Virus record (IMG/VR): IMGVR_UViG_3300044818_000015
Location: 1-64,000 of that record
DNA: 64,000 nt
Strand: one strand, 5' to 3'
Source: a virus
A program made the translations under genes and the position numbers. This document shows, one piece after another, positions 33,367 through 51,300 of the stretch. A model generated the notes under the pieces. The model worked only from the letters and a program-made list of their open reading frames with translations. It did not search any database and was not told the DNA's origin. How positions within the stretch are numbered: position 1 is the stretch's first letter; each line of letters starts with the position of its first letter.

Positions 33367-36300
33367 TTATTGCCCTGAAAGCCGATTCATCTGCTCGATA
33401 ACTTCCTGTTGCTGATTCAGCGGGAGCTTCGGCCAGGCGGTCCTGATCTTCTTGTTAAGAATGGGAGTGAACAGGATACGTTCCTCGGGCGTGGTAATGT
33501 CCATGATGTCGAGCGCCGACATCATGTCGAGGGACTCGAAGCCCGCGACATTCTTCGGCACCTTGGCGCGCTTGAGGGCTAGCTTCACGTCATTTGGCGA
33601 GATCACGCCCGCGGCAATCTGCTTGCCGATCAGCTCGTTGGCTTCGTCGATCTTGTCGTCGCGCACCAGGCTGGTGATCTGGTTCTTCACCTTCACGCGG
33701 TCGGCATTGGCCGCGCTCGATCGCTGCCGCGCCAGGAACTCCGCATGGTTGAGGGCGTCCCCAGGCCGGCTGAATAACTGCGGCGTTGCCAGATCCACAG
33801 CCATACGCAGCCAGTGATTCGCGGGGTCGTCGCCGTGCGGCATCAGGCCCTTGGTCAGCCCGGTCGCTTCGCCGACGTTCTCGAGGAAGCCGTTCATGGT
33901 GACAAGTGGCGCCAGGGCATGCGCCTTCGCCCAGCCAGCCATTCCCGGCTTCTGCGTTTCTACCGCTTTCATAAGTTGCGGGTTAAACTTGCCGCGATCG
34001 TCGCGCCAGCCGGTGACGTATGGCTCGGTTCCGCTGAGGCCCACCCAGGCCGCACTGAACGGAGGGCCGAGGAGCGGATGCGCCGCAGCGTTAAAGGCGC
34101 CGGCGACGGCCGCGTCCATCAACTGGTCCGTGCTGCCGCCGGCCTTGTAGGCGTCGAAGGCTCCGGAGATGCCGAGAGCGCGCGCGCCGCGCTTCACGAG
34201 CGGCGAGAAGAAGCCGATATCGATGTAGGCGTCTCCATTCGACGGCGGGCCCCACAACTGTTGGGCCAGCCAGGTGGCACGCTGCTTATCGGTCAGACGC
34301 ACGGCCAGGAGCTTCGAGTGCGGATCTTTCCATGGCGGGTCCCCGCGCATCGCTTCGTGCATGGCGATCCACAGGGCGATCAGTCCCACCGCTCCGCCGG
34401 TTATTGCCTGCAGGGCACGCAGGCCTGCGCCGCCCTTGGGCATCGGTCCGCGGCCGGTCCAGGCGTTGACGCCATTCCGCGCCATGGTCGAGCCCGCGGT
34501 GTAGAACGGGCTCCAGCCGCTTTCCTTCGCAGCGCGCTCGATGCTGCCCTGCAGGGCGCGGGTGTAGTTGCCGAGTTGGTTGACCACCAGATACAGGTCT
34601 TTCGTCGTCGCTTGCGGGTACAGTGCTTTAGCGGCGCGATACATCACCAGCCGCGCACGAATGTCGATCCCCTTGGGACCATACAGGAACGGGCCGAAGC
34701 CGAGGCTCGCCTCAACATCCCGCTTCGCTGGTCCCGGCTGCCGTAGAACCATCGCGGCAAAGTCTTCCGCCGTCTCACGCAAAGCCCGCTTAATTTCGCC
34801 GCCGAGGGTTGGCTCGACGTCCGCACCCATTTGCGCGGCGTATTCCCGGCTCTTCTTGAACCAAGACGAGGCCATCGAGCCATATTTCTCTGGCACCACC
34901 CCGAGCTTCGCCATGTCGATGATGTCCTGGACGCTCTCCTCGGTGGTCGGATTGGTGTTGATCAAATGGAAGATGGCCGCCGCCCGCTTGGTGAATGGGT
35001 TGCCGCCTGCGATCTTGCCGGCGAGACTCGTCCCAAGGAACGGGGTATTCGCCACCAGGGTGCCGATAAGGTTCGCCGAGTGGATCACCGCATCGAGCGG
35101 TCCGGCCAGCGTGAACTGAGTGATCTTGCCGATGAGACTCGCGGGGTCCGACAAGTTGAGGTTGTTCTTGTCGAGAATCGGCCGCAGCTCCTCTTCGAGC
35201 CACGCCGCGGTAACCATGTGCTGCGCCGGCACAAATACGGATCCCTGTCCTGGCGTCACAATCTGGCGGTCCGGCTTAACCTCGACCTTCACGGCCTTGT
35301 AATCTTTGCTGCGGATCGCGATCGAGTCCGGCAGGGATTCGCCGCGGCCCAACTTCCGGCCGAGCTTGTTGTCTTCGAGCGCCTGGATCAGCGCCCCCTT
35401 ATTGTTGGCGCGGAACGCCTGGCGCAGCCGGTCGGCCAGTGCCTCCATGCCGGCGTCGTAGAATTCTCCATGGCCGGTGGCGAAATAGTTGGCGATGTTG
35501 GGAGGCTTGCGATACGGGACCGCGCGCCCCCAGCGGCCCTTGGCGTTCGGTTGCTCTTCATCCAGGCGGACCAGCGGGTAATAGGTGTCAAGCGGCCCAA
35601 GGGCGTTTGAAAGCACGCCTTCGTTCTCTTCGTGATTCTCCCGTACCGCATCCTCCACCAGCGTTTTGTAGACCTTCAGGCCGCCGGCGAATCCAGCGTG
35701 TTGGGTGATGTCCTGGTACTCGGTCTCGGGCATCATCCGCGCCACGCGCGCCGCCGCCCGCTCGAAGGTGTCCACCAGAAACGCACGCAGGCCGTCCATG
35801 TCGCCGCGCTCGAGGAGCGCCGCGGCCGTCAGCGCCGGGCTCTGGATCGGCACGCCGATACTCTCCTCATGAATCGCCTGGAGGGCGTGCATGACGCTTG
35901 CGAGGAATGCCGGCAGGTCATCGTTGGTCGATTGCGCCGCGCCTTCGGCCATGTTGTCCCAGCGTCCGCGCAGGCCGCGCAGCCGCGATTCGATCAGCGA
36001 TCGCCGGAAATTGAGCCAGCTCGGCCCGTTCTTCCCTAGTGCCGCTTCGACTCGTGGCGCCGCAGCCCGCATGAGCGCCACAGTTTGCGCGCGCGACGTC
36101 GCGGTCTGTACCGCTGCCGCGTGGGCGGGATGGCTTACCTTTTCAAGCTGGGAGAGGTTGCGGACGAGCTTGTTTTTGAGCGCGCCGGTCTTCGACTGGT
36201 AGCTGGCTGGTTCGTTTAGGGCTTTGCGGCGCCGGGCAAAGGCCGGTCCGTCTTGTAGAAGAAGTGCGGCTTGTCCTCGGGATCCTCCGGCGGCATGATT

Positions 36301-39300
36301 TCCTCCATGGCTTCCGCGAGAGCTTTGGGGCCCTGTCTCGCCGCTGTCAGCCCCTTGCGGTAATTCGCCTTGAGGCGTTCCAGATCTTCGTTCTGTTTCG
36401 GCGTTAATTCCGGCACGTAGCACCGCCTCTTTCATCATGGGAGCAAGGTTTGTGATGGCTTGCTCGACTGCTTTGGCTCCATGCTGCTTGGTGAGCAACG
36501 TGAAGTAGTGCGTCCCTAACTCTACCGCTTGCGGGCGGGTAAGTCCCAGTTCTTCGTACTGGCCGCCCACCAGGTGCGTACCGATTTCGGCGGCGATCTC
36601 GTTTTCGGGGTATCCCTTGAGACGCAGTTGCACCGCTGCGTCTTGCGCGAACGGGTGATCGAGTAATTCCTGCTCGTGCTCGCCGAGGTGCCCCTCTAGC
36701 TGGTCGATACTGAGGTGCCACTTCTCATGGCGCAAGGTGGCCGCGGCGCGCTGCAGGCCCGCGCTTCCGTTGACCAGCAACACGGATTGCTCGTTAGCCC
36801 CTGCTTTTTCGAGAGCGAGCGCCAGCGCCGGATGGGTCGGCATCAGCGCTTTCACCGCCCTGACGACGTGGCGCGGGTGCAGGCGCATGCCATCGAGCGC
36901 CGGATCTCCCCAGACTTGGCCGATCGCGGTTACGTTGGCCTGGTTCGTGATCAGCTTACCGGGCTGTACGGTGATCCGCAGTGCGCCCGGGTCCGAGGTT
37001 TCGCCGTCCGGCGTGCGGGCGAACAGCGGCTGTCCCTGCATCACCGAATCCACCATGGCAGGCGTGATGTCGATCGAGTGCAACGGCTGCAGCGCGCCTG
37101 GATTATCGGTGGCTACCCTCGCGACGAAGGCCTCAGCCTGTGCGCGGGTTTCAAATTCCCTTACGGGTTCGGACAGAGTATCTTGGCTATCCAGAACGGA
37201 GAACATCTGGCCGGCTGCTCCGCCGTCCTGCTCGTCGATAAATAGGTCGCCGGCGATTGACGGTTTATTTATCTGCGTCGTCCCTACCTTCGCGTCCCAT
37301 TTTTTCCCGTACTTCTTGGCGTAGTCGACCAGTATCTTGTCGTAGAAGCCCTTCATCCCCTCGCCGCCGACTTTCAGGTCCAGGCCGGTGAAGGTTCTGG
37401 CGGCAGGGTCGCCAAAGTCCGACTTTTCACCCTCGCCCGCTACGATCCTTTGCGCCATCTCCTTGCCGACGATATCTTCGAGCCCTTCCGCCGTGACAGG
37501 TCCAGTGCGGCCGGTGTCGTAAATTGTCTCTCCGCCCTTGGCATCGACTGTAAGATCAAACGTCCCTCCTTTGGCTGGTTTTGCCCAAATGGATTCAAGT
37601 TGCTGGCTCAGGTCGTACCGGTCCGCATGCGTCTCGCCGGTGTCCCAGGCCAGCCTGTCGTAGCCGTTTTCCGCCGCATAGCGCAGCATCCGCTTGAAGG
37701 CGAGCTCGTGCCAGGTCTTGGCGAATGGTGCGGGAGGGACGCCGCTATCATTCTTGTGCACGGTGGACAGGGTGTTCGCCTTATCGATCCACTCCTCGCC
37801 GAAGTGCTCGCGGAGAGCTTCGAGCCGTTTCGCCTTACTCGCCTGCGCGGCTTTACTTGCCTGTGCGTTGGTGTCGCCCGGCCTTTCGAAAAGCCATCCG
37901 AAAGTGTAAGGGGATAGGCCGAGGTCAACGCTGTTGAGATACGCCTCTGCTTGATTGCGCAGCGCGTCCCACTGGCCTCCCTGGTAGCCCTTCTTCTTTC
38001 CTTCCTGGTGCCAGTCGCTCTGAAGTTCGTAGACGTGCAGGATCTTCTCAGGTGGGGTGTAAGGCGTTCCGTCGGCGCTGGTCCAGCGATCGCCGAAACG
38101 GACGTGCGCGAGGACGTTGGGCTCGCTCCAGTGGGAGGAGCGGTAAGTGCCCGCGGTCTGCCGGGTACGCTCCATCCCGTTGGCGTCGGTGTAAGTTTCG
38201 CTCTTCGCGCCGGGCAGTGTCAGTAGCAGCTCGCGGTAGTTCTCGCCGCCCGGGGTGACGTAGCCGCCGTACTTGGCTACAGATTCCCTGGCGGGGCCCT
38301 GGTCAAGGTCAATCTCGATGCGCTCTGCTTCGACGGCATCCTTGGCCGCAGCAATAGAGTCAAACTCGCCGAGCGAGCCATGGGTGCTCGTAAGGCTGAA
38401 GCCGTCGTATCCTTTATTGGGCGTGATAGTGTAGCGGCCTTCCGGCGTGTCGGCGATCCAGTCGGGAAGCTCTTCCTTCCACGCCGTAGGCTCGAGCTCG
38501 GCGCCTCCGCCCTTGACCACTTCCTCGACCTGCACCTCGTTCGCCTTCACGAACGCGAGCACCTGCTCCCGGGTCACCGGCCCCTTGCGCTCTTCGAGCC
38601 AGGTATCGAGTCCGGTCCATTTCAGCTCATCGGCCTTCACTCCACTCTGCGGGTTGCGCAGCATGGCCAGCAGTTGACCTGGCACGGCCGGTCCTTTCAT
38701 CTTGGCCGCGATCGCGCGCTCGAGCTGGGAATAGAAGCCCGGGGTTTTGCGGGAGTACTGCGGTGTGTCCTTGAAACGCTCGGCCTGCTCTGCGTGAAAG
38801 GCCTTCCATGCCGCCGCGTCCGCCTCATAGAATGCCTGAGCGGCTGCGGTGGAATCGTCGTCAAAGGGGCGGTCCGCTTGACTCTTCTGGAATGCCTGGA
38901 AGGCGCGGTCTCTCTCCTTCACGAACTCGTCGACGCGCCGGTGCTGCGCGTTGTTAAACTCCGCCCGGCTCGCTATTACCTTTTCGGCACGTTGCTGGCC
39001 GGTCTGTGCCGCCGCCGGCGAAAGCTCGGCCAGCGATTGCTCCAGCCGTTTGACGGCCGCAGCAGCCGCGGCGCGCTCGCCCGGTATGGTGGCGCGCTCC
39101 ATGAGTGCCTTCGCCGAGCGTAATTGATCGGTTAGCCTGGCGCGGGGGTCCTGGAGCACGCGCGAGTACTGCGGCTTGTCCGCTGCCTTCGGCTGGCGCG
39201 AGAAGAGCGGCGCCTGCTCCGGCTCCTGGCCCTGGTCGCCGAACAGGCTATCGCTGCCGCGGTCTTTCGCCGGCTTCAGCTTGGCGGGCCTGGCCGCCAT

Positions 39301-42300
39301 ACCGGATTTGACCTGCGCCGTCAGTTGCGCGCCGAGTAGCCGGTCCGCGGCCGATTGCGTCTCTGCTTGCGAGCTCGCTTCCGCCACGCGGTCCACCAGC
39401 GAGGCCTGGCCGGCGATTTCGTGCGCCTTCGCCCTGGCACGCTCCAAGGTCGGATAGATCGTAACCGTGGGCAGGGTCTGCTCGGCATCGAGGTCGCGCA
39501 GCGTGACCGCGTATCCGTTCGGATGCCTGGTGACCACGGACTCGAGGCCGTCTTCGTGGTTGGTATAGCGCGCCAACACTTCGGGCGCCTGGCGCGAGAA
39601 CTGCGGCGCATCGGGCGGCGCCTCGTCCGGCTTCACCGGATAGGCTTCGAGAATGCGATCGAGGATCGCCCCTGTCGTGTTGGGCCCGTCCCCGTCGTAC
39701 TTCCTGGGGATGTAATACACCGGCGTGATGCCCTTTTCGGAGAGAGCGCCAAGGGTCAACAGATTGCGGGCGACGTCCTGGTTTGGCGGGAATAGCTGAA
39801 TTACCTGGATCCGTCCAATGATCCCGCGGCGTACCTGGGTGTTGCCTTCGAGGGTGTAAGTCAGGTTGTTGCGCAGCACGTCGTCATGGAGCTGCTTGGC
39901 GTCGACGGTGCTCTTGCCGCCCGAAATGCGATCGAGCAAGGCGCGAATCCGCGATTCGGGAATGTCGATACCGACCACGCGCTCGGCAGTCTTCGAGTCC
40001 GCGGTGGTGTAGATGCTGTTGCGGATGAAGGCTGCATCGCGGATCGGATTCCAGAAGCGCATCACTTCGCCGCCAATCAGGTGGTGATGGGTGGTGGTGT
40101 GAGTCGGCGCCGCGTCGTAGCGCTCCTTCCAAATATCCTTGGCCCATTGCTGGGGATCCTTGGCGATGGCTTCCGCCGCGGCCAGCGGCGCCCGCTGCGC
40201 CTCCACTTCCTTGGTGCTGGCGTCAACCCGCTTGCGCTGCCAGCTATCCGCCGGCATCTCGTACGCCTTAGCCTTGGCAAGGGCAGTCTTCGCCCGTTCC
40301 AGTGCTTCCTCCCGCCGGGTGCGCGCGAAGTACTCGAAGTCCGGCGCCGCCGCCTCATCCGCGCGGCCTTGCGCATAGCTTAGATCGGATTCCGCGTCGC
40401 GCACCCTCGAGGTGCGGTTGTTGTCTTCGTCCCGCTTCAGTTGAGCCTGGTCGCGCTCGAGGTCCCGCTCCGCGCCCTTCAGCGCGTCCTGTGCCTTGCT
40501 CAATTCCTCCTTCGCCCAGGTGTCCACTTCCTTGAGGCCCTTGCCGCGCAGCTCCGCCTGCGTGACCTTGAGCCAGCGTCCGCGTTCCGGCTTGGCGGTG
40601 TAAGACGACGGTTCGACGTTTCCGTCCGCGTGCACGGTCGGCGGGGCGTCGATCACCAGATAGAGCACGCCCTTCTCGTTGCGCGCGATCGCCGCATGCC
40701 GCTTCTCGTGCTGCAGGAGGCGCTCGTCCAACTCCTCGGGCGACACGCGCTCCGTTTTGTTCTTGGCGTCAACGGGATAGTAGTAAGTCTCCGCGCCGGT
40801 CTTCGGATCTTTGGCGAGTAATCGCTGTTCCTTTACTTCGATCTCATCGCCCGGCAGGGTTTTGACGCCGGTATCGAGCGTGCCCGCGGCGATCGCCTGC
40901 TCAACGGCCGCATTAAAGATGTTGAAGAAATAGCGATACGTCGCGTTTTGAATGTCCGGATCGAGCGCCATCAGCCGGTTCAGCAGCTTGGTGACGTTCG
41001 TCATATCCGCGGGCGGGATTTCGGGCCCGCTCGAGCCGAGCTTGATTACTCTGAGATCGGTGAGAACCTGGAGGCCGCTGAGCCCGGTGCCGGGTACGGG
41101 TTGGTTGCGGAGGAGTTGGGTATAGAAGGAGTTGGTCGCGGCGCGGCCCTGCTCCGTCTCAATGTTGGCGTTCTCGCCCATGGCGGAGCCCGCCGCGGCG
41201 TTCTTCTGGCCTTTGGTCAACGCGCCGAGCGAACCCAGGCGCCGCTGAATGGTCGAAACGAACCGTTGCTCGCCCGCCAGGTCGGAAATCAGGAAGACGT
41301 ACTCGGGCGGCTGCTTCTGGTTGGTGCGGTGGGTGCGGCCCAGCATCTGCTGCGCCTTGTCCGCGGACCAGCCCGTCTGCAGGGTGATGTGATAGCGCTT
41401 TTGCTGGTTGGCGACGTCGTTGCCGGCGTGCAGCGAGATTCCGGTACCGCCCGCCGAGGAGAGCACCGCTACCCGCTTCTTGCCGCCTTGGAAGGCGCGC
41501 ATCTCGAAGAGGTTGATTTCTTTCTTCGAGGCCTTGGGGTCGCCGCGTGGTACGAACTTGCCGATGGAGCGGTCATACTTCTCTTTGCGTCCTGTGATCT
41601 CCGCGACGTGCTTGTCTCCGCCCAGGCTGTTGATCAGGATGTCGAGCGGATTCTCTGGCATGTGCAGATCGCGGTTGAGCTTCGCAATCAGCGCATCCCG
41701 GGCTTCGACGGCCGCCGGATTGACAACCGGGATCTTACGGCCCTGCTCATCGTTCCGGTAAACCGGCACTTTGATGGGGTTGCCGCTCGAGTCTACGTCG
41801 TCGGCATACTGCTGGGTCGGGTAACTCGTGAGGACCATGTTGACCAGGGCTTCCTTCGGCCCGAAGTCATACTCCGGTAAATCGTCCGGATCCTCGTCCT
41901 CGTCGCGCTGCTTGGCTTTCTCGCGATTCTGCGCCGCCTCGTTGGTGTTCACCAGCGTGATCACTACCGACTTACCCTCGGCCAGCGCCTTATTGGCGAG
42001 CTCTACCGCGGTGGGCGTCTTGAGCGCGGTAATCAGTAGACCGAAGAAGCGCTGCTGTGCGCCGCCGAACGCGGACATGAAGTTGCCGCGCTGCTGCCGG
42101 CCGCCATTGGTCGTATTGGCGATGGTGGCTTCGGCGTGCTGAATGACGGAGGCCCAGGCCTGCGTTGCGGTGCGGTACAGGTCTTTCTGTTCCTTGGATA
42201 GCTTGTGGGTCTCTGTCTCGTAAGTGACGCCCTTGTAACTCAGCGTCCGCGCCAGATACTTGCCCTGCGCCTTGAGTGAGCGGGCGATCAGCTCCATCGC

Positions 42301-45300
42301 GGCAATGCCGCCTGGCCCGATCTGCGACTGGAACTCGCCGAACCCTTGCGGGAAGGCTGTCCCTGGCCCCCACTGGCCCAGGCGATCGAGATAGCCGAGG
42401 TTGATTACATCGGTCGCGGCCGTCGCCGAGAGAGAGACCGTGCGCAGCTTCGGCATGCGCGCCAGCAACTCCTTGGCCGCTACGCCCCTCTGGCTTTCCG
42501 AGCCGCCTTGGGCGGCGACGGCCGATTTGAGATTGTGCGACTCGTCCCATAGGATGTACGCGCCTTCGCCGTCGTCATCGCCGCGTAGATACGCCTCCAT
42601 CTGGTCGATGCGGCGCTGCCCGGTCTTATTCTTGCCGGTGAGCAGGGCATAGGTCGAGAACAATACGCCGTCGTGCTCGATCTTCTTGCCGTAGCCGAAC
42701 TTACTGAACGCCTGCACGGCGGGGTTCTCGCCCATCACGTTCTTGCCGTCCTCGATGGAGATTCCGCGCGTCAAGGCGTCCGCGCCGATGTTGCGGAAGT
42801 CGTGAATGGCCGCGTCCATCAGGTCCCACTTCTCGGAGACCCAGATCAGGCGCTTCCGTCCCTGGAGATAGTTATCCCAGAGGATGCCGGCGGAAATGCG
42901 GCCTTTGCCCACACCGGTTCCGTCGCCGATCAGCGCACTGGCATAGTGCCCGCCGGGCAGGACGATGGAATTCTGCTGGCCCGCGAACGCGATCGCTTCC
43001 ATCTGCACGGCGGAGAGGCGGCCGTTTTCAAGGACCGAAGGCGGCAGGGAGGGCTTGTAGGAGATGGGTGGCGGCTTTACGGTCGCCATCGTGCGGGTTT
43101 CGACGATATCGCCGGGATGCGCCGGTCCGGCGATCGAGGGGCGGTACGGAACGAACGGGCCGTTGTCGGCTTCGGCTTCCGGTTGGGGGACTTCTTCGAG
43201 GTTCGGGCCTAGTGTGAGAGTAGACGGTCGTTCGTCATTTGAGTCCGGAGGACGGCTTTCAGGACGTTCAGCGGCGGGAGTTTCGGGATGTCCCGCAGAC
43301 TCAGTTCCGGGTTGGACTCCACCAGGTAGTTTATCGCCAGCACCGGCTTGAACTCCCGCATGCTGACTACCAGATCCTCCAGGCTTTCCGGCAGGTTTGC
43401 CCGCTCGGCCAGTTCCTCGGCCGCCCGGGTGTACTCCTGGCGGCACTGCATCATCATTGCCAGGATCTGCGCCCAGGCCAGTTCCGGACTTACCGGGCCG
43501 AGGGCCATTACCGCCTCGCGGGACAGGCTCGATTTGCGGGCGATCGGCTGCGACATCTCTAAGAAGATTGTACGCCTCCTCAAGCGTCTCAACATTTCCC
43601 TGGAGCACGGAGTCCCAGGTTTTCACCGCGCCGGGCTTCACCTGCGAGGGCGTGGCCCCGTTCTTGTCGATGACAATGATCCGCGTCGAGAACGTGGTGC
43701 CGTACTTCTGGTATTCCTTGCCGGCGATCCGGATGTTGGCGCGCACGTTGTACTGCGCCGCAATCCGCTCGAACCATTTGCCCGAGGGTCCGGTGGTGAG
43801 GTTGGCGCCGCCGTTGGTGTCGTCGGCGCGTCCGCCGCCCAGGATCACCACCAGCCGGCCGTTCGGGAGGAGACGCTGGAGCGCCTGGTCTACGTGGTTC
43901 AGCCCATAGATCGCGCGGTTTGTGGCTTCGTGCGATTTGATGGCGCTCGCCGAGAACGGCGGATTCATCAGCACCACGGTCGGACGGATGGCCGGATCGA
44001 GCAGCGCGTTGATCAGCTCGCCGTCGTGCGCGGTCGGCTTATTGAAGCCGATCAGCTCCATCATTTGGGCGCGGCGCTCGGAGACCTCGTTGACGTGGAC
44101 TTCGGCGCCAATGGCCTTCGGCCAGATAGCAATCCCGCCATTGCCGGCGGAGGGTTCGAGTACGACGTCAGTAGGAAGGATGCCGCCAACTCGGGCCACT
44201 ACATAGGATTCGGTTGGGGGCGTCGAGAATTGCTGGTTGGCCAGTTGTTCATCGGTCCGGACGCTCTGCGTGGTGACGCGCCCCAGCAGCTCGCGCAGAT
44301 CTTTCAACGCGGCGATGGGGTCCATTTCCATCAGCGCCTTGCCGCGTTCGAGCAGCAGCTTGTTGATGCCGGCTTCCATGGCATCGAAGGCGTCTTTCGG
44401 GGTCCAGTCGCCCGAGGCGCGGGATCCGCCCAGGTGGAGCTCCGCCAGCTTATTGAACTCGACGACGTTGCCGAGCGAGCCGCCGGATTTCAGCTTGTCG
44501 TAGACGGCATCGATGAGCGCTTGCGCGGGATGCGCCGCGGGCTCAGGCTCAGGCGCGCTCGTCGACACGCCATTAATCTTGCGGATATCCGCCGGTTTGA
44601 TGTAGACGGAGCGGGCCGGCTTGTCGGTGGCCGGGATGCGTACTTCAATCTCGCCGCTACTGCCGTAGATCGCGACGACATTACCCTTGTGGATGCCCTG
44701 CGGGGAATCGAAGACCACAACATCGCCCTTGTTGACGACGGGCATCGGCTTGTCGGCTTGTACTGGTTGCTGATCGCCGGACGCGGGTTTCTCGGCCGGG
44801 GGCTTCATGGGCTCCACGGTCTTGCCGTTAATCTTCGCCACGGCGACGGCGAGACGGTGCACCTGGCGCAGCGCGTCTTCCGGAGTCTGGCCGGTTTTCT
44901 TGGCGTACCACTGGATCACCGGGCCGACGTCCTCGTTCATGCGGGCGAGCCAGGCGGCTTCGTCGGTCACGCCATCGAGCATGTGCTCGGCGCCGACCGT
45001 GGCCAGATCGATGCGCGCCTGCTTGATACGCGGATCGGGCGGGGTGGTTCCGTTGGCGCCTTCGGTGCGCGAGTATTGCGGCTTGTCGGGCTTAGAATTG
45101 ACTTCGCCATCTTCGGGCGCGATATTGGAATCAGGTGCACCACTGTTCGGCGAAGGAGTTTCGCCGCTCCCTTTGCGGGGGGTTCCGGGAACACTCGTAG
45201 TCCTCCCGGAAGGCAGAGGAACTTGACCGCTGGTTCCCGGGGGAGTCGGTCCGGGACCTTTCGGGGCTTCACCAACGCGGATTCTGGTGGTGAGGGCCGG

Positions 45301-48300
45301 CGGTTCATCTTCATATACGGTAAGCAGCCATTTCTTCGCTTTCCCGTCATAGTCCAGGCGCACTGCGGCTTTGTGCCGATCGTCAAATAGCCGAATACGA
45401 TTCGCTCCTGAACGCTTTTCATCCACCTGCATCTTCGGAAAGAACTCCGGGAGCTCGGCAAGAATTGCGGTGCGGCCCTTAGCCACCAGCTTGGCGACGC
45501 CCTCTCCGTCCTCGAAGTCCTTTTCTGGCGTGCCCGACTTTCCCCAGATGATGTCCACGTCCCCGAGGCGGGGGTCCGGGTGATATAGTGCCGCTACCGC
45601 GTCACCGGTCTCATGTTCGAGGAGCCACGAGATCGCGCCTTTGGCGTCGTGGTGGAACTGCCGGAGAATCGGCCCGTGCGATCCCATTTCTGGCTGATCT
45701 GTCCTCCGCGAGTACTGTGGTTTGTCGTCTTCCTCCAGCAGCGCCTTCATGCGATCGCGCGCTTCCTTGCCGGCATCGGCGAGCGGATTGGCTTTGGCGG
45801 GCGGCGCGGCCTTCTTCGGAGCGGACGGGTGATTTGGCGGGAATTTGGATTTCGGGGCGGGGGTTGCCGTGCTTGCGTCAACGGTGACGACCTTGCCGCT
45901 GTCTCTCACGGCCAGGGTGAAGGCGGGCTCCTGGTCGCCGTGGTTGTCGATGCGCAATACCTCGCCAGAATGCGCGGTACCGCCAGGCCCGTTGAAAGTC
46001 ACCCTTCCGCCGATAGGAAACCGCTTTTCCATGTCGGCCGTAGTGGCGCGAGCCGTGCCGCGCTTCGCCGCAATTGCGGCAGCCGCGGCGTCGACGGCCT
46101 CTTGCTCTTCGTCGGAGATCTCGGGCTCGGCGGGCTTTCCGGAAGCGAGCGCCTTGAGATCGGAGATCTGGCCCCGGAGAAACTGCTTATTCTCCTCACC
46201 AGCCGCCGCGGCGTCTTCCAGAATGGATTCGGCTATGGCGATGTCACCCCGGATCTCGGCGCGGGCATCCGCCCGGGCTCCAGCCGAATCGGAGCTGAGT
46301 GTCAACTCCCACTGCTTTTGTTTCTCGAAGAGGCTGTCGATGATATTGGCGAGCGCTAATTCGGCCTCGTTTTTAGCCCTGTGTTCCTTTTGAAGCTGGT
46401 CTTCGAGATTGGCCGTGTGCTTCTTGCTGATAGGGATCTTCTCGGCGGTGGTCAGGTCTTCCGTCACTGGCGCGGGAGCCACCGGTCCGGTCTTCGGCGC
46501 TCCGAACGCCTTGGCGAATTCCTCGACCGGATCCGGTTGCTCGAAGAACGATTCCGCGGTGGAGCGTTCCACATAGGCGCGGACCATCTTGGCGATCGCG
46601 GTGCCGGAATCCTTGCGCAGGATGCCGGCCAGGTGCTCCGCCCGCGGCGTCGTCTCCGGCCGCTGGCTGCCGAACATCTCGGGCTGGTCCTTGGCAAGCT
46701 GGCTGTTGGCGTCGAATCCGTGCGCCTTCTTGTAGTCGGCCTCGTATTCGATCAGCGCCGTGGCCTGGCGGACGTCGGGTGAAAGCGTCCAATCCGGACG
46801 CGCTTCGATGATGCGCAATAGGGGGGCAATGCGCTCCAGTTTGTTGCGCAGCGCGGGGGCGATGCGCTTAAACTGGTCGCTGTCTTCGAACAGGCTGCCC
46901 ATCACCAGCTTGGCTACGCGCTCCTTGGCGGCCTTGGTGACCGCGCCGCTGGTCGAATCGAAAAGGACGGGCCGCTCCTCTTCGGTAAAAATGCCTTCGC
47001 TGATGAGCCGGTTGACGATGCTCGGGCCCATCTTCGAGTTCATGATGTCGTTGAGCGAATCATCGGGACCGAAGGATTCGAGGACGGAGGCGAGATACTT
47101 CGCCAACTCCGGGGTGATGCTGCGGGCGTCTTCCGTTGCCTGTTCGGCAGTCGAGAGCTTTGCCGTGGGTACTTTGTTGAGGTCGGCGATTGCGCGTTGC
47201 TTGTCGATAGTGTCGTCGGCGATAACGCGGAACAGGCCCGGCTTTTTGAATCCGTCTATCCCGGCGGGATCGATACCGAACATGGGGGCGCGCTTCCTGA
47301 GCCGCTCCTGGTACCGCTTGGCAAGTTCAGGAATCTTGTAGGCGCGCTTCAGGGTGATGAGCCGGTTGTTGCCACCGAGGGCGTTGCCTACGTCCTCAAT
47401 GACGGAGGGGCCGTTGATCGCGTCGGGGTTGTCATTGATGAGATAAGCCTCATCGAAGAAGGCGGGCAGGCTGTTTTGGATCGGACGGGCCCGGTTCAGC
47501 TCGTCGCTGTAATCTCGGCCGTTAACGTATGGATAGTCGGGGTCTTCTTCGAAAGTAAAAGGATCGTGGCTGGGGCGAACGTCGTCTATTTCTCGGATGG
47601 AGTAATAGGCTTCGTAGGGGAGGGCTCTTCCCTTGACACGAATTTGCGTCCGTTCGCCTTTAATCTCTTTTCGGCCTGTTGGAGGCGGTTCAGGAAGCGA
47701 TTCTCCTTCGTCTCCACGCTGTCCTCGGGCTGAACGTGTTTCATCGGATGGCTCCTCTACTATAGGCGTTTTGTCGGCTGGGGGTTTTTCTTGTATTGAA
47801 CCTTCCTCAGATGTGGCGGTCGGTCCAGCGGCTTCGGTGGTTGTGGCAGGCCGGATGCGCTCCCAGTAAACGGTGGCTTCAACGTCGTCATCGTCGAATT
47901 TGACGCGAATGCCGTCCCGCGTCTTCGTGTTGGCAAAGCGTTTGAGGTCGACCATTTTGACCACTGCCGGGCGGTCGGGCTTCTCGCCGGGGATGCTTAC
48001 CAGGACGTGCTGGCCCACCGCGAAATCGTGGATGCCGGCGGGCTTCTTCAGATCCGGATAGTCGGCCAACACTTCCGGCGGTATGGTCTCGCCAACGTTC
48101 ATTGCCTTCCGGATCGCGGCCTCATGGCGCCGGGAGAGTTCCGTTGTCGGGACGCGGGCGGCGCCGTAGCGCTCCGGATCGCGCAATTCTCCTTGAATCA
48201 TCTGCGCAAAATCGTTGCCGGGGTTGTTGTAGTCGCCGTAGGTATCAGCGAGCGCGTTATGGCGCGCAGTCGTATCGCGACTGTGGTTCAGGAGGTCGGC

Positions 48301-51300
48301 CAGTTCCCGGTAGGGCAACTCCCAGGCGTGTTTGCCCTCGGCGGCGGGCTTCTTCTGGCCGCCCCACTCGCGGCCCTTGGCGGATGGCTCAAATTCGGGG
48401 ATGCCGCCCAGCTCGGCGATGACCGCGGCGTGGTCGATCTTCTTCGCGGTGGCGCGCTTCCGGAATTCGGCGAGCTTCGCCTGCGCTTCCTCGATTCGCT
48501 TGTCGCGATCGCTGATGTTCTCCCACGTCTCCCATTCGTAGCGGCCCTGGCCGGCGAATTGGGCATCGGCCTCGCGGGCGTGCTTCAGGGAGTCCGCAAT
48601 TTTCTGGAGAGCGTTGAGCGAGAGCTTGACCGATTGTTTGACGCGCTCGGGAACTTCTTCGGGCGCGTGCTGTGGCGCTTCGGCGGGAGGCGCATCGCCG
48701 GACGCGGGCGCGGGGGTTCCGCGCTTCTTCGCGATCGCCGCGGCTGCCGCATCGATGGCTTCCTGTTCCTCTTCGGAAACTCCTGCCTCGACGGGCTTCT
48801 TGTCTGCCAGCGGGTGTTGCGGGGGAAGCGTCTGCTTCTTCGGCGGGGCGGGTGGCTTTGGCTTTACGGCGGCCTTCCAGAGGTGATCGTGCGATGGCAC
48901 CTGAATCACGCCGGGCTTGGCGTCCTTCGCGATGCCTTTGATGCTGTCTCGGACCGCCACACCACCGGTGCGGATCTCCGCTTCCTTCAGCCCGGTGTGC
49001 TGTGCGACGAAATCGACGTACTTCTGATCGTGCTTCGAGGGAGTCTTCTGAGCTGCAATGTACGCGGCCTTGTCCAGGTCGTTCTCGAATTCCAGGGTGA
49101 ACTGTTTCGGCCCGTAGCTGTAGCGCGGGGCGGCTCCCTGGAGAGCATGCGGGAGGATGGCGGGAGTTGCAGATTGTGGCTGTTCAGCCACATTACTTAC
49201 TTGACTAAGCTCTGGTTTTTCTTCGGGCGCCGGCGTCTCGTTTTGGAGGGGAGGCACATCGCCGGACGACGGCTGCGCTTCCGCCGCGGGCTTCCCTGTT
49301 AGCGGGATTTCGACTATCTTGCCGTCTTTTCCGCTGAACGTGAGCGAATCGAGGGTGATCGTTCGTCCGGTGACGTTGCGAATGATGCTCCCGTCGTATA
49401 ACTCGCGGTGTGTCCCTGGCTTCAGGTAGGCGATGGTGACGTGTGGCTTATAAGTGGGGAATGTGTTGCCGGTGTGGTCGACGGCATCGCCGACCAGCTT
49501 ATTCAGCTCGTGCAGCTCGGGCGAGTCTACGTCTACCTTGAGGACGTCCGGTCCGCCGTCCGTACCCTTAAATATGGAGGTCTTGCCGAAGGTGACGGTG
49601 ATCGGTCCTTGCCCTTTCAGAATTTCCTGAATCGGAGTGGGGTCCGCGCTGGGGTTGCCGTATTTGACGGTGACGTGTATTTCCTTCTCGCGGCCGTCGC
49701 TGGCGTCGCCTCCGGTTTTCTCCCCTGCTTCAACGTGTAAATGCTCATCGGGGATGGCGGCGCCGAACTTGCGCACTGCATCCGCGATATCCTCCGGCAT
49801 GTTGACCTGGGTAGAAGAGTAGTCGTGAGTTTGAGGGGCAGTATCATCATTTGATACCGGCGCTGCTTTCTCTTCGGGCGCGGGCTTCGGCTTGCCGGCC
49901 GCGGGCCGCGCCATGGCGGCGTCCACGTCGGCACGCAGGGCATTGTCGAGCGATTCGTATGGTTTACCGTGCCGCGCCATCGCAACGCGATCGCGGGCGA
50001 TGCTCTCCGGCGTTGCTTCGGGCGCGGCAGCCGCGGGTTTCGGCGGCACGTCGTCGGCACCGTCATCCGGCTTCGGCGGTTTCGGTGGCACGTCATCCGG
50101 CTTCGGTGGTTTCGGCGGAACATCATCGGGCTTTGGCGGTTTCGGCGGAACGTCCCTCTTGCCGGTCCGTTGGAATTCCTTCTCGAGAATGGAATACGCC
50201 GCTTGGTTGCGCCGGAAGATAGCCGGGTCGACGCCGGGGTTTCTGTCCGGATGGGACGCCATCGCGGCCTTGCGGTACGCGGCGCGCACCTCTTCGAACG
50301 TCGCGTTTCGGTCGACGCCTAGAATATCGCGGGCTTGGTCCTGGGAAAACTCCGGAGATCCGCGGGGCCGTCTCTGTCGCCGGGCGTCATCCTCCTCACG
50401 CTGGCGCTTTTGCCGGGCTTCTGATTCCTCACGTTCGCGCTTGAGTTTGGCTTCATATTCCGCTCGCCTTCGCGCGGAGGCATCTGCGCTTTGGTCCGGA
50501 GGTGGCTTCTTGGTGCCATCGCGTGCGGCCGTTGTCTCCTCATACATCTGCCACATGCGTTCGTCGGTGTACTGGTGGCCGCTGGCGGGGTCTTCCCACA
50601 TCCCTTGCGCGTTTTTCTTATAGAGGTTGTCGCGCCATGTCTCGTAGGGGCCGGGCTTGTAGCCGTCGTCGGGTGGGGGCTTCTTGGGTCCGCCGCCGCC
50701 TTCCCGCTTAAACTTCTCAAAGAGGGACTCTTCGTCAAATTCATTGCCGTTAGTTCGGTCCTTTGACTGCCAGCGATCTTCGGTACCGTGTTGCTCGTAA
50801 AACTTGTCTCGCCACGCATTAAATTCTGGGTCGGGGGCGCCGCCCCTTTGCTCGCTGCGTCCATGGGTGCCAAAGCGTTGGTTATACTCAGCGTGCAGCG
50901 CTTCATCGGTGAAGGTGTTGCCCGCAGTGTCTTCCCAAGTGCCTTGCGCCGTCTGCTTGTAGTTCTTATTGCGCCAGTCTGAGTAGAAGTTTCTAAATCG
51001 GTTGGGGCCCGTGCCGTGGGAGCCAGGGTCGCCGCTATCCGGTGGGGGCTCGTCAACGATTTTCTCTGCTTCGCCGGGCTTGAACTTGAAATTGAAGATG
51101 TCGCCGAGTTTCTTCTCGATGGCGGTAAGCACCTTTTCGCGGTATTCCGGACCGGCCGCGTGGACAAAGGGCAACAGGGTCATGGCGGCATGGCCCACCA
51201 GGTCGCCGGCCGTGGCTGGCGACGGGTCTTGCTTGAAGCGCTCATACACTTCAGGTAGGTCTTTCGCCATAGTGGTGGCGAAATATGCATCGACGCCCGC

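What the first reader, a model, noticed from the sequence alone, without database searches (positions are those of the whole stretch)
36216..47744. Three overprinted +1-frame genes nested in linkers of the giant gene
Seen: ORFs 47744-47586 (52 aa; TATAGT-AGAGGAG-7-ATG), 43556-43209 (115 aa; TACAAT just upstream) and 36416-36216 (66 aa; AAAGAGG-GTG) are all on the same strand in the same +1 frame (start mod 3 = 2, versus 0 for the host gene). Each covers a low-complexity G/P/S/R linker of the host frame yet itself reads as an amphipathic helical protein. They adjoin the ParB-like, MTase/helicase and peptidase domains respectively. Inference: separately expressed inhibitors or chaperones of the neighbouring domains, i.e. 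antitoxins embedded within a polyvalent gene.
Basis: partly seen in the sequence, partly recalled or inferred. Interest (0 to 1): 0.75.

Follow-up and report, generated by a model that had tools for sequence, protein, structure and literature searches.

The report
Small genes nested in giant gene
Inside a 19.6-kb phage gene for a giant multi-enzyme protein, at least one and probably two of the floppy spacer regions are also read one base out of step as separate small conserved proteins that gene annotation misses.

Summary
The three ORFs exist as described, all in the +1 frame of a 6541-codon polyvalent phage gene. Their number and length are what chance gives (24 +1 ORFs of 50 aa or more; shuffles 25.1). 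But they are the only 3 of 24 with gene-like codon usage, and the three deepest drops in host-frame GC3 (z -9.3, -6.4, -5.5).

ORF-B (43556-43209) is a real overlapping gene. It is open in the same frame and place in 9 further loci. Selection there follows its frame: the host's third codon position becomes the most conserved. Its profile finds 161 protein clusters. The same layout, with a selectively kept ATG, holds across the methyltransferase/Strawberry-notch-helicase genes of phages, plasmids and bacterial contigs that I examined.

ORF-C (36416-36216) is probably real: the +1 frame alone is conserved in 6 relatives, but the evidence is weaker.

ORF-A (47744-47586) has only compositional support and no homologue.

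The proposed promoters are not supported.

This scan has noted the same phenomenon before on other DNA, in at least 30 genomes. My literature searches found nothing in print.

The parts
33367..52992 (-). Host gene: 6541-codon polyvalent (DarB-like) phage protein gene, with no cysteine
   Evidence: one open frame. (DnaJ, 2H/Acb1-like, ddrB-ParB-like, AAA_34, Helicase_C_4). (giant relatives at 48-66% identity). (0 Cys of 6541).
43209..43556 (-). ORF-B: 115-codon embedded gene in the +1 frame, across the methyltransferase-to-helicase spacer. A further in-frame ATG lies at 43595.
   Evidence: open in the same frame and place in 9 other loci. (codon-position reversal). (161 clusters). (family-wide dual coding and a selected ATG).
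36216..36416 (-). ORF-C: 66-codon +1 ORF (GTG start) over the end of one module and the next spacer; probably a real embedded gene
   Evidence: log-odds +0.69, host GC3 z -6.4/-6.8. (shared motif in the +1 frame of 6 relatives). (rank 1-2 of 12-24 in 6 of 6 loci). (mean Z 4.31 against 0.99 and 0.88). Weak points.
47586..47744 (-). ORF-A: 52-codon basic +1 ORF just before the ParB-like domain; a candidate only
   Evidence: log-odds +0.48, host GC3 z -5.5/-5.8. (AGAGGAG 7 nt before the ATG). No comparative support.
43543..44505 (-). N6-methyltransferase-like module of the host protein (host aa 2830-3150), directly upstream of ORF-B
   Evidence: invariant NPPF-type motif; 62-70% identity in relatives. 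(relatives annotated as class I SAM-dependent methyltransferase/helicase). No Pfam methyltransferase family was listed.
42172..43092 (-). AAA_34 (Strawberry-notch-type P-loop) module directly downstream of ORF-B
   Evidence: E 1.3e-79.
40861..41652 (-). Helicase_C_4 (Strawberry notch C-terminal) module
   Evidence: E 1.1e-77.
47224..47616 (-). ddrB-ParB-like module whose start overlaps the 3' end of ORF-A
   Evidence: E 8e-6; 26.4 bits, just under the curated 27.6. (ParB-like matches in L002, L073 and L051).

Best explanation
The giant gene is a polyvalent, DarB-like phage protein gene whose modules are joined by low-complexity spacers. At least one spacer, and probably two, is dual-coding. 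The DNA holds a small, ordinary-looking gene, and the giant ORF reads that same DNA one base earlier as a stop-free flexible linker rich in G, P, S and R.

Shown:
- ORF-B (43556-43209, 115 aa) belongs to a large unnamed family of proteins of about 115 aa. They lie in the +1 frame exactly between the methyltransferase and the Strawberry-notch helicase modules.
- Purifying selection there follows the small gene's frame, while the host frame is only kept open.
- The same layout is found across this methyltransferase-helicase gene family in phages, plasmids and bacterial contigs.
- The family's ATG is held by selection on a host wobble base.

Inferred:
- The small proteins are made by internal initiation on the giant gene's mRNA.
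- The layout arose when a fusion read through an intervening small gene. In a GC3-rich gene the -1 register rarely holds stops.
- The product acts together with the adjoining methyltransferase-helicase module as a partner, keeper or assembly factor. Nesting would then keep module and partner together when modules are shuffled.

ORF-C is probably a second gene of this kind. ORF-A is a possible third.
For: Intrinsic signal:
The other 21 score -0.40 to -1.47.
- Host GC3 over them is 0.39-0.43 against 0.73-0.77 expected from the host amino acids: z -8.8, -6.8 and -5.8.

ORF-B in relatives:
- tblastn finds it at full length in L002, L038, L090, L050 and L081/L001, with E 9e-20 to 6e-10. An HMM adds L082, L077 and L071, and marginally L068.
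- In all 10 it is the +1 frame of an ORF of 1349 to 5566 codons. The third frame is open for only 3-53 codons.
- On a host-frame-guided alignment of 6 sequences, identity at host codon positions 1/2/3 is .75/.84/.42 in the methyltransferase and .72/.81/.39 in the helicase. Over ORF-B it is .47/.54/.59, and host amino-acid identity there is .29 against .65-.69 in the flanks.
- The profile finds 161 cluster representatives at E<=1e-3, 99 of them at E<=1e-10. Of the 152 family proteins retrieved, the median length is 119.5 aa and the C-terminal end is conserved.

Across the wider family:
- Among 83 distinct spacers, pairs with E<1e-5 number 123 in frame 0, 310 in frame +1 and 108 in frame +2. Mean stops per spacer are 0, 0.48 and 8.61.
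- 64 of 97 distinct loci have an ATG at one fixed site.
- Where the host has an NAY codon followed by G at that site, the codon is T-ending in 64 of 67 loci. The same amino acids in the flanking modules are T-ending in 302 of 689 codons.

ORF-C:
- Mean pairwise Z is 4.31 in frame +1, against 0.99 (host frame) and 0.88 (+2), over 21 pairs.
- The junction ORF ranks 1st or 2nd of 12-24 by codon log-odds in 6 of 6 loci.
Against: - No evidence of translation: no RNA holder was listed, and no proteomics or Ribo-seq is on hand.
- Alternative-frame tblastn hits also arise as by-products inside the conserved core. Among the 112 alternative-frame ORFs tested, several antisense and +2 ORFs score down to E 1e-64. 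The case therefore rests on the frame comparisons, not on the hits.
- The window's ATG at 43556 has no well-spaced Shine-Dalgarno motif; GAGGAG lies about 19 nt upstream.
- ORF-C: tblastn and pairwise phmmer give the window's copy no significant match. The HMM found only its seeds. The codon-position test follows whichever frame guided the alignment. I picked the segments after seeing the motif.
- ORF-A: no homologue, and 2, 4 and 2 stops in the equivalent +1 stretch of L002, L073 and L051.
- Low GC3 alone could also reflect unusual codon use in linkers.
- The large spacer-ORF cluster and the ORF-B family are not significantly linked by profile comparison (hhalign probability 1.5%, E 0.033).
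- The function is wholly inferred.
Confidence: 0.8

Rival explanations
1. Chance ORFs. In a 62% GC gene, hydrophilic G/P/S/R linkers lack the NTA/NTG codons that create +1 stops, so long +1 ORFs appear there without being genes.
For: The ORF count and lengths equal those of synonymous shuffles: 24 against 25.1 +/- 3.0. P(+1 open | host amino acids) is 0.49, 0.32 and 0.94. ORF-A has no homologue, and the +1 frame is closed in 3 distant relatives.
Against: Host GC3 deficits of z -5.5 to -9.3 are not explained by amino-acid composition. For ORF-B there is the codon-position reversal and a family of 161 clusters. The +1 frame gives 2.5-3 times more significant pairs than frames 0 or +2. The ATG is under selection.
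Confidence: 0.04
2. Programmed +1 ribosomal frameshift. The +1 stretches are alternative C-terminal tails of truncated isoforms of the giant protein (for example N-terminus to methyltransferase plus the ORF-B domain), not separately initiated proteins.
For: P0183 reads a methyltransferase domain straight into an ORF-B-like domain after a frame switch. P0093, P0095 and P0074 carry the ORF-B domain at the C-terminus of longer proteins. The window's ATG lacks a well-placed Shine-Dalgarno motif.
Against: The ATG is kept by selection on the host's wobble base: 64 of 67 T-ending, against 44% in the flanks. All 97 distinct loci have an ATG in the open segment. In L081 only 6 codons separate the upstream +1 stop from the ATG. 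I did not search for a slippery site.
Confidence: 0.08
3. Selfish in-frame insertion. As in the ShiLan element of actinophage methylases, a mobile insertion keeps the host frame open and carries its own out-of-frame gene for its own spread.
For: A published analogue exists (PMC11855218, abstract read). 21 of 131 loci have a spacer of only 8-17 codons and no such ORF. Spacers at the ORF-C junction vary widely in length.
Against: No nuclease or any other family match was found in 9 members. The ORF sits at one fixed junction, and no copy was found elsewhere in the fetched loci: 80 loci were hit, all at the junction. Its divergence tracks that of the host gene.
Confidence: 0.05
4. Fusion scars. 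The +1 signal is the fading imprint of sequence that once coded in that frame before the modules were fused, and it is no longer expressed. This applies mainly to ORF-A and ORF-C.
For: ORF-A has compositional evidence only. Weaker GC3 dips (z -4.4 to -3.3) with negative log-odds occur at three other +1 ORFs, as decaying scars would look.
Against: This is not tenable for ORF-B, where the frame is open and conserved across relatives with 17-36% identity in the small protein. For ORF-C, +1-frame similarity persists in 6 loci.
Confidence: 0.03

Closest known systems
Rz1 embedded in Rz (lambda-type two-component spanins)
   Same: A complete small gene lies wholly inside a larger phage gene, on the same strand and in the +1 register. 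Gene callers usually miss it, and the two products work together (PMC6139136, passages read).
   Different: Rz1 is a lipoprotein with an export signal, and the host Rz is a small protein. Here the host is a multi-enzyme protein of several thousand residues, the overlapped part of the host is only a spacer, the small protein has no recognised signal or family, and no interaction is shown.
ShiLan-type out-of-frame HNH endonuclease inside an in-frame insertion of a phage DNA methylase
   Same: A stretch of a phage methylase gene reads through without stops as a loop of the host protein, while another frame holds a complete hidden gene (PMC11855218, abstract read).
   Different: That gene is a homing HNH endonuclease and the element is sporadic and mobile. 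ORF-B has no nuclease or other family match and sits at one fixed junction in the 80 loci hit by the cluster profile.
Polyvalent proteins of phages and conjugative elements (Iyer et al. 2017), including P1 DarB-like methyltransferase-helicase proteins
   Same: The host gene fits this class: many conflict-related domains in one polypeptide of a phage. Phage relatives are annotated as DarB-like antirestriction proteins.
   Different: That paper's main text does not hold the words 'overlapping', 'frameshift' or 'linker'. It does not describe nested small genes.
This scan's own earlier notes of genes nested in methyltransferase-helicase linkers (unpublished AI notes)
   Same: The same position, frame and size, with the same conclusion, on other genomes.
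   Different: Those notes concern other DNA and are unchecked. The analysis here was done before I read them.

Membership tests
Embedded same-strand overlapping gene (Rz/Rz1-type architecture) | The small ORF lies wholly inside the larger ORF, on the same strand and in the +1 register | tested here: met
   for all three ORFs. for ORF-B in 10 loci.
Embedded same-strand overlapping gene (Rz/Rz1-type architecture) | Both frames are kept open and the small frame is under purifying selection in relatives | tested here: met
   ORF-B. ORF-C: inconclusive (for; 80 and 112 not). ORF-A: not testable, as no homologue was found.
Embedded same-strand overlapping gene (Rz/Rz1-type architecture) | Own start codon maintained | tested here: met
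   ORF-B superfamily: an ATG at a fixed site in 64 of 97 loci. The host wobble base is T in 64 of 67 loci, against 302 of 689 codons in the flanks.
Embedded same-strand overlapping gene (Rz/Rz1-type architecture) | The small product is translated and works with the host gene's product | not testable with these tools
Unnamed family of ORFs in the methyltransferase/Strawberry-notch-helicase spacer | About 100-140 codons in the +1 frame, between the end of the methyltransferase module and the AAA_34 module | tested here: met
Unnamed family of ORFs in the methyltransferase/Strawberry-notch-helicase spacer | Sequence homology between the window's ORF-B family and the main cluster of spacer ORFs | tested here: inconclusive
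   hhalign gives probability 1.5% and E 0.033, collinear over 92 columns.
   No tool here tests this. The PADLOC library was not searched.
ShiLan-type out-of-frame homing endonuclease insertion | The hidden frame encodes an HNH (or other homing) nuclease | tested here: not met
   No Pfam or PHROG family at E<0.009 in 9 members. No PDB sequence match below E 0.58.
Programmed +1 frameshift product | A conserved slippery or shift site, and no need for a start codon | tested here: not met
   The start codon is under selection. I did not search for a shift site.
Polyvalent protein (host gene) | Several conflict-related enzymatic or binding domains in one polypeptide of a phage or conjugative element | tested here: met
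   (domains). (the window is a virus record). (relatives).

The most novel reading that the evidence does not exclude
Module boundaries of giant injected polyvalent proteins are, as a rule, built by reading through a small partner gene in the -1 register. Each nested protein would be the cognate keeper (inhibitor, chaperone or loading factor) of the enzyme module beside it. It would stay in the producing cell while the giant protein is injected, so the module becomes active only in the newly invaded cell. Nesting would make a module and its keeper inseparable when modules are shuffled between phages and plasmids.
Probability: 0.2. Interest if true: 0.9.

Novelty: new variant of a known kind. 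Interest (0 to 1): 0.8.

Why it matters
Long same-strand overlapping genes with solid evolutionary support are rare in bacteria and their tailed phages, and gene callers discard them by design.

Here one of them is not a curiosity of a single phage. Most of the methyltransferase/Strawberry-notch-helicase genes of phages, plasmids and bacterial contigs that I examined carry it, including a RefSeq plasmid where only the giant CDS is annotated.

It points to:
- an unannotated protein family of at least 161 clusters;
- a simple route by which 'linkers' of giant proteins can arise, namely a small GC3-rich gene read one base early;
- a testable idea about how injected anti-defence enzymes are handled in the producing cell.

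The carriers include cultured Methylomonas, Rhizobium and Agrobacterium plasmids, so it can be tested at the bench.

Tried and rejected
- Near-identical DNA: megablast of the gene against plasmids gave 1 trivial 52-nt hit, and against phages none.
- A single-protein scan of viral contigs found no relative.
- tblastn of ORF-A and ORF-C against the 240 loci gave nothing below E 0.025. ORF-C against 19 further loci gave nothing below E 0.31.
- The ORF-C HMM found only its own 7 seeds. In pairwise phmmer only L248-L251 and L248-L241 are significant, and the window's copy matches none.
- The ORF-C codon-position test depends on which frame guides the alignment. Guided by +1 it gives .415/.488/.371; guided by the host frame it gives .438/.443/.312. 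It is therefore inconclusive.
- ORF-A: L059 shares the upstream module but continues differently. The protein database gave no candidate, and there is no look-alike in this scan's notes.
- ORF-B family: no match in Pfam, PHROGs or PDB sequences. tblastn of P0067 found nothing in GenBank phages or PLSDB plasmids.
- A viral-contig scan with the close-relative alignment A3 found none.
- Extra domains of the longer family members got no Pfam name, and none matches the fetched loci except one domain of P0093.
- Five other +1 ORFs in weaker low-GC3 stretches have no Pfam family.
- Promoters: 3 sites found against 3.0 expected, none near the ORFs.
- Expression: no RNA holder was listed.
- I rejected 'the spacer is an insertion peculiar to this clade': a spacer of 100-160 codons is the norm, in 94 of 131 loci.
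- I rejected 'the tblastn hit proves the gene': by-product hits are common in the conserved core.
- Supplements of papers were not opened. They could hold annotations of such ORFs that I did not see.

Full report
**What is there.** The window comes from a virus record. The minus strand carries one open frame of 6541 codons, 52992-33367. Pfam finds these domains:
- DnaJ (aa 889-942).
- A 2H/Acb1-like phosphoesterase (about aa 1101-1195).
- A ddrB-ParB-like domain (aa 1793-1923), just under the curated cut-off.
- AAA_34 (aa 3301-3607, E 1.3e-79).
- Helicase_C_4 (aa 3781-4044, E 1.1e-77).

The stretch before AAA_34 is a methyltransferase-like module. It has an invariant NPPF-type motif, and its plasmid relatives are annotated as class I SAM-dependent methyltransferase/helicase. 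The gene is therefore a polyvalent, DarB-like protein gene. Phage relatives carry that annotation, and giant relatives with 48-66% local identity exist in metagenomes.

**The observation.** The three ORFs are at the stated coordinates and all lie in the +1 frame. The host frame over them is enriched in G/P/S/R: 0.42-0.47 against 0.27 overall. The quoted upstream motifs are present.

**Chance.** ORF counting does not single these ORFs out.
- The +1 frame holds 24 ORFs of 50 aa or more, 6 of them of 100 aa or more.
- 300 synonymous-codon shuffles give 25.1 +/- 3.0 and 7.6 +/- 1.9.
- Given only the host amino acids, the +1 frame stays open over the three spans with probability 0.49, 0.32 and 0.94. 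A +1 stop needs a host codon with T in second place, and hydrophilic linkers have few of these.

**Intrinsic signal.** The three are nonetheless exceptional.
- A codon log-odds score compares the giant gene's in-frame codon use with its +1-frame codon use. It is positive for exactly these 3 of 24 (+0.69, +0.48, +0.46) and negative for the other 21 (-0.40 to -1.47).
- In their own frame, GC at codon positions 1/2/3 is .53/.38/.66, .66/.40/.81 and .66/.42/.75. This resembles the giant gene itself (.66/.46/.76).
- Host-frame GC3 therefore falls to 0.39-0.43 where the host amino acids predict 0.73-0.77: z -5.8, -8.8 and -6.8.
- Among all 24 ORFs these are the three lowest (-9.3, -6.4, -5.5). The next are -4.4, -3.4 and -3.3.

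**ORF-B in relatives.** I fetched 240 loci that encode relatives of the methyltransferase-helicase core.
- tblastn with ORF-B gives full-length matches in L002, L038, L090, L050 and L081/L001: 30-43% identity, E 9e-20 to 6e-10.
- A control showed that such hits alone prove little. Of 112 alternative-frame ORFs in the gene, many inside the conserved core also get hits, down to E 1e-64, as by-products of host-frame conservation.
- The decisive test is which codon position varies. On a host-frame-guided alignment of 6 sequences, identity at host positions 1/2/3 is .75/.84/.42 in the methyltransferase and .72/.81/.39 in the helicase. Over ORF-B it is .47/.54/.59, and host amino-acid identity is .29 against .65-.69 in the flanks.
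- On an ORF-B-guided alignment, its own positions give .55/.62/.47. Selection follows the small frame.
- An HMM adds L082, L077 and L071, and marginally L068.
- In all 10 loci the small frame is +1 of an ORF of 1349-5566 codons, and the third frame is closed.

**A large family.**
- The 9-sequence profile (A2) finds 161 cluster representatives at E<=1e-3 among 1.84 billion proteins, 99 of them at E<=1e-10. The word-indexed search found 7.
- The 152 family proteins retrieved have a median length of 119.5 aa and end a median of 3.5 residues after the profile.
- There is no match in Pfam, PHROGs or PDB sequences.
- A few longer members carry the domain in frame with other sequence. One, P0183, runs from a methyltransferase domain into it after a frame switch.

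**The whole methyltransferase/Strawberry-notch-helicase family.**
- Of 131 loci with both anchors, 130 are fused in frame without a stop.
- In 94 of them the spacer is 100-160 codons. In 21 it is only 8-17 codons.
- In the 88 of these 94 loci that had no ORF-B hit, host GC3 in the spacer falls by 0.217 +/- 0.110 relative to the flanks. The +1 frame there holds 1 stop in 54 loci, 2 in 28, 3 in 4 and 4 in 2.
- The longest open +1 segment has a median of 133 codons, 0.98 of the spacer length.
- For 83 distinct spacer cores, all-against-all phmmer gives these pairs at E<1e-5: 123 in frame 0, 310 in frame +1 and 108 in frame +2. The largest clusters hold 16, 45 and 14 members. Mean stops are 0, 0.48 and 8.61.
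- The profile of the largest cluster hits 80 loci, always at this junction. It hits none of the 21 short-spacer loci.
- Its link to the ORF-B family is not significant (hhalign probability 1.5%, E 0.033), although the alignment is collinear.
- A RefSeq plasmid of Methylomonas sp. LL1 annotates only the giant CDS.

**Start of translation.**
- All 97 distinct loci have an ATG in the open segment, and 64 have it at one fixed site.
- That ATG is made from the last two bases of a host Asn or Asp codon plus a following G. Where the host has such a codon there, it ends in T in 64 of 67 loci. The same amino acids in the flanking modules end in T in 302 of 689 codons. The start codon is therefore selected, which favours separate initiation over a frameshift.
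Close relatives called by gene finders begin there.
- No promoter-like site lies near any of the three ORFs.
- This phage's well-defined genes mostly lack Shine-Dalgarno motifs, so such motifs say little either way.

**ORF-C.** I fetched 19 loci with the C-terminal module.
- tblastn finds nothing.
- In 6 loci (L241, L245, L246, L248, L250, L251) the +1 frame at the same junction carries a shared hydrophobic-acidic motif ending in aromatic-Pro-Pro. The host frame there is G/P/S/R-rich.
- Shuffle-based Z-scores of local alignments over the same DNA average 4.31 in frame +1 (12 of 21 pairs above 3). They average 0.99 in the host frame and 0.88 in +2. The window against the six gives 6.1, 4.5, 3.2, 2.9, 1.7 and 0.5.
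- By codon log-odds, the junction segment ranks 1st or 2nd of 12-24 +1 segments in 6 of 6 loci.
- Against it: pairwise phmmer links only L248 with L251 and L241. The HMM finds only its seeds. The codon-position test is alignment-dependent. I also chose the segments after seeing the motif.
- I rate ORF-C about 0.6.

**ORF-A.** There is no comparator.
- L002, L073 and L051 share only the ParB-like domain, at 31-39% identity. They have 2, 4 and 2 stops in the equivalent +1 stretch.
- L059 shares the upstream module but continues differently.
- The protein database gave no candidate.
- What remains is the compositional signal and a strong AGAGGAG 7 nt before the ATG.
- I rate ORF-A about 0.35.

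**How it most likely works.**
- Shown: two frames are maintained over ORF-B, and the constraint lies on the small frame.
- Inferred: in a GC3-rich gene the register one base earlier begins its codons with G or C. It therefore rarely meets a stop and yields residues rich in G, A, R, P, D and E. A fusion that reads through an intervening small gene would get a flexible linker at no cost, while the small gene lives on.
- P(host frame open | small protein's amino acids) is only 0.055 for ORF-B and 0.089 for ORF-C. The openness of the host frame is therefore also maintained.
- A role as partner of the adjoining module is a guess from the fixed position. The product is near neutral (pI 5.8 from the 43556 start).

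**Known things.**
- The polyvalent-protein paper does not mention nested or overlapping ORFs.
- My searches found no description of this layout.
- The nearest in print are Rz1 inside Rz and the out-of-frame HNH in a phage methylase insertion.
- This scan's earlier notes report the same nested gene on other DNA, with 31 and 27 findings in at least 30 and 24 genomes. I read them after my own tests.

**Limits.** No fold, no complex and no DNA of the closest relatives could be had.

Noticed in passing
window 33367-52992 (-): The 6541-residue giant protein has no cysteine at all (0 of 6541). This is unusual for a protein of this size. It may relate to passage through the envelope or to ejection.
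   Followed up: no
window 44967-45461, 47760-47936, 37440-37598 (-): Three further +1 ORFs (164, 58 and 52 aa) lie in weaker host-GC3 dips (z -4.4, -3.4, -3.3). Their codon log-odds are the least negative of the rest (-0.48, -0.41, -0.40), and none has a Pfam family. They could be decaying or further nested genes. The first overlaps the low-complexity stretch that another first-reader note (e1-6121577) read as antisense RNAs.
   Followed up: partly
21 loci listed (L117 ... L198), several from Pyrinomonadaceae or Acidobacteriota assemblies (titles): In these loci the methyltransferase and helicase modules are joined by only 8-17 codons. There is no nested ORF and no hit of the spacer-ORF profile within the fetched flanks. 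They are natural 'knock-outs' worth comparing.
   Followed up: partly
L050, L082, L071, L077 spacers: The spacer is 258-326 codons in these loci. In L050 the host frame gains an extra module after the nested ORF, and P0093 has a similar domain in frame with the ORF-B domain.
   Followed up: partly
P0183 (429 aa, Logan assembly): A called protein runs from the methyltransferase domain into an ORF-B-like domain through a frame switch at the conserved end of the methyltransferase. This is either an assembly indel or a natural in-frame fusion.
   Followed up: no
L260 = NZ_CP064652.1 22588-32298: On the Methylomonas sp. LL1 plasmid, the 3236-codon gene sits after traF, topoisomerase III and traD. 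It is annotated as a single CDS with no nested gene.
   Followed up: no
window, starts of high-GC3 genes (e.g. 62863, 60043, 58896, 55738, 54468 on the minus strand): The upstream 30 nt of this phage's well-defined genes mostly lack Shine-Dalgarno-like motifs. Ribosome-binding-site arguments therefore carry little weight here.
   Followed up: no
window 52992 (-): The giant ORF's first possible start is a TTG, 10 nt after the end of the preceding gene (54468-53002). I did not determine the true start.
   Followed up: no
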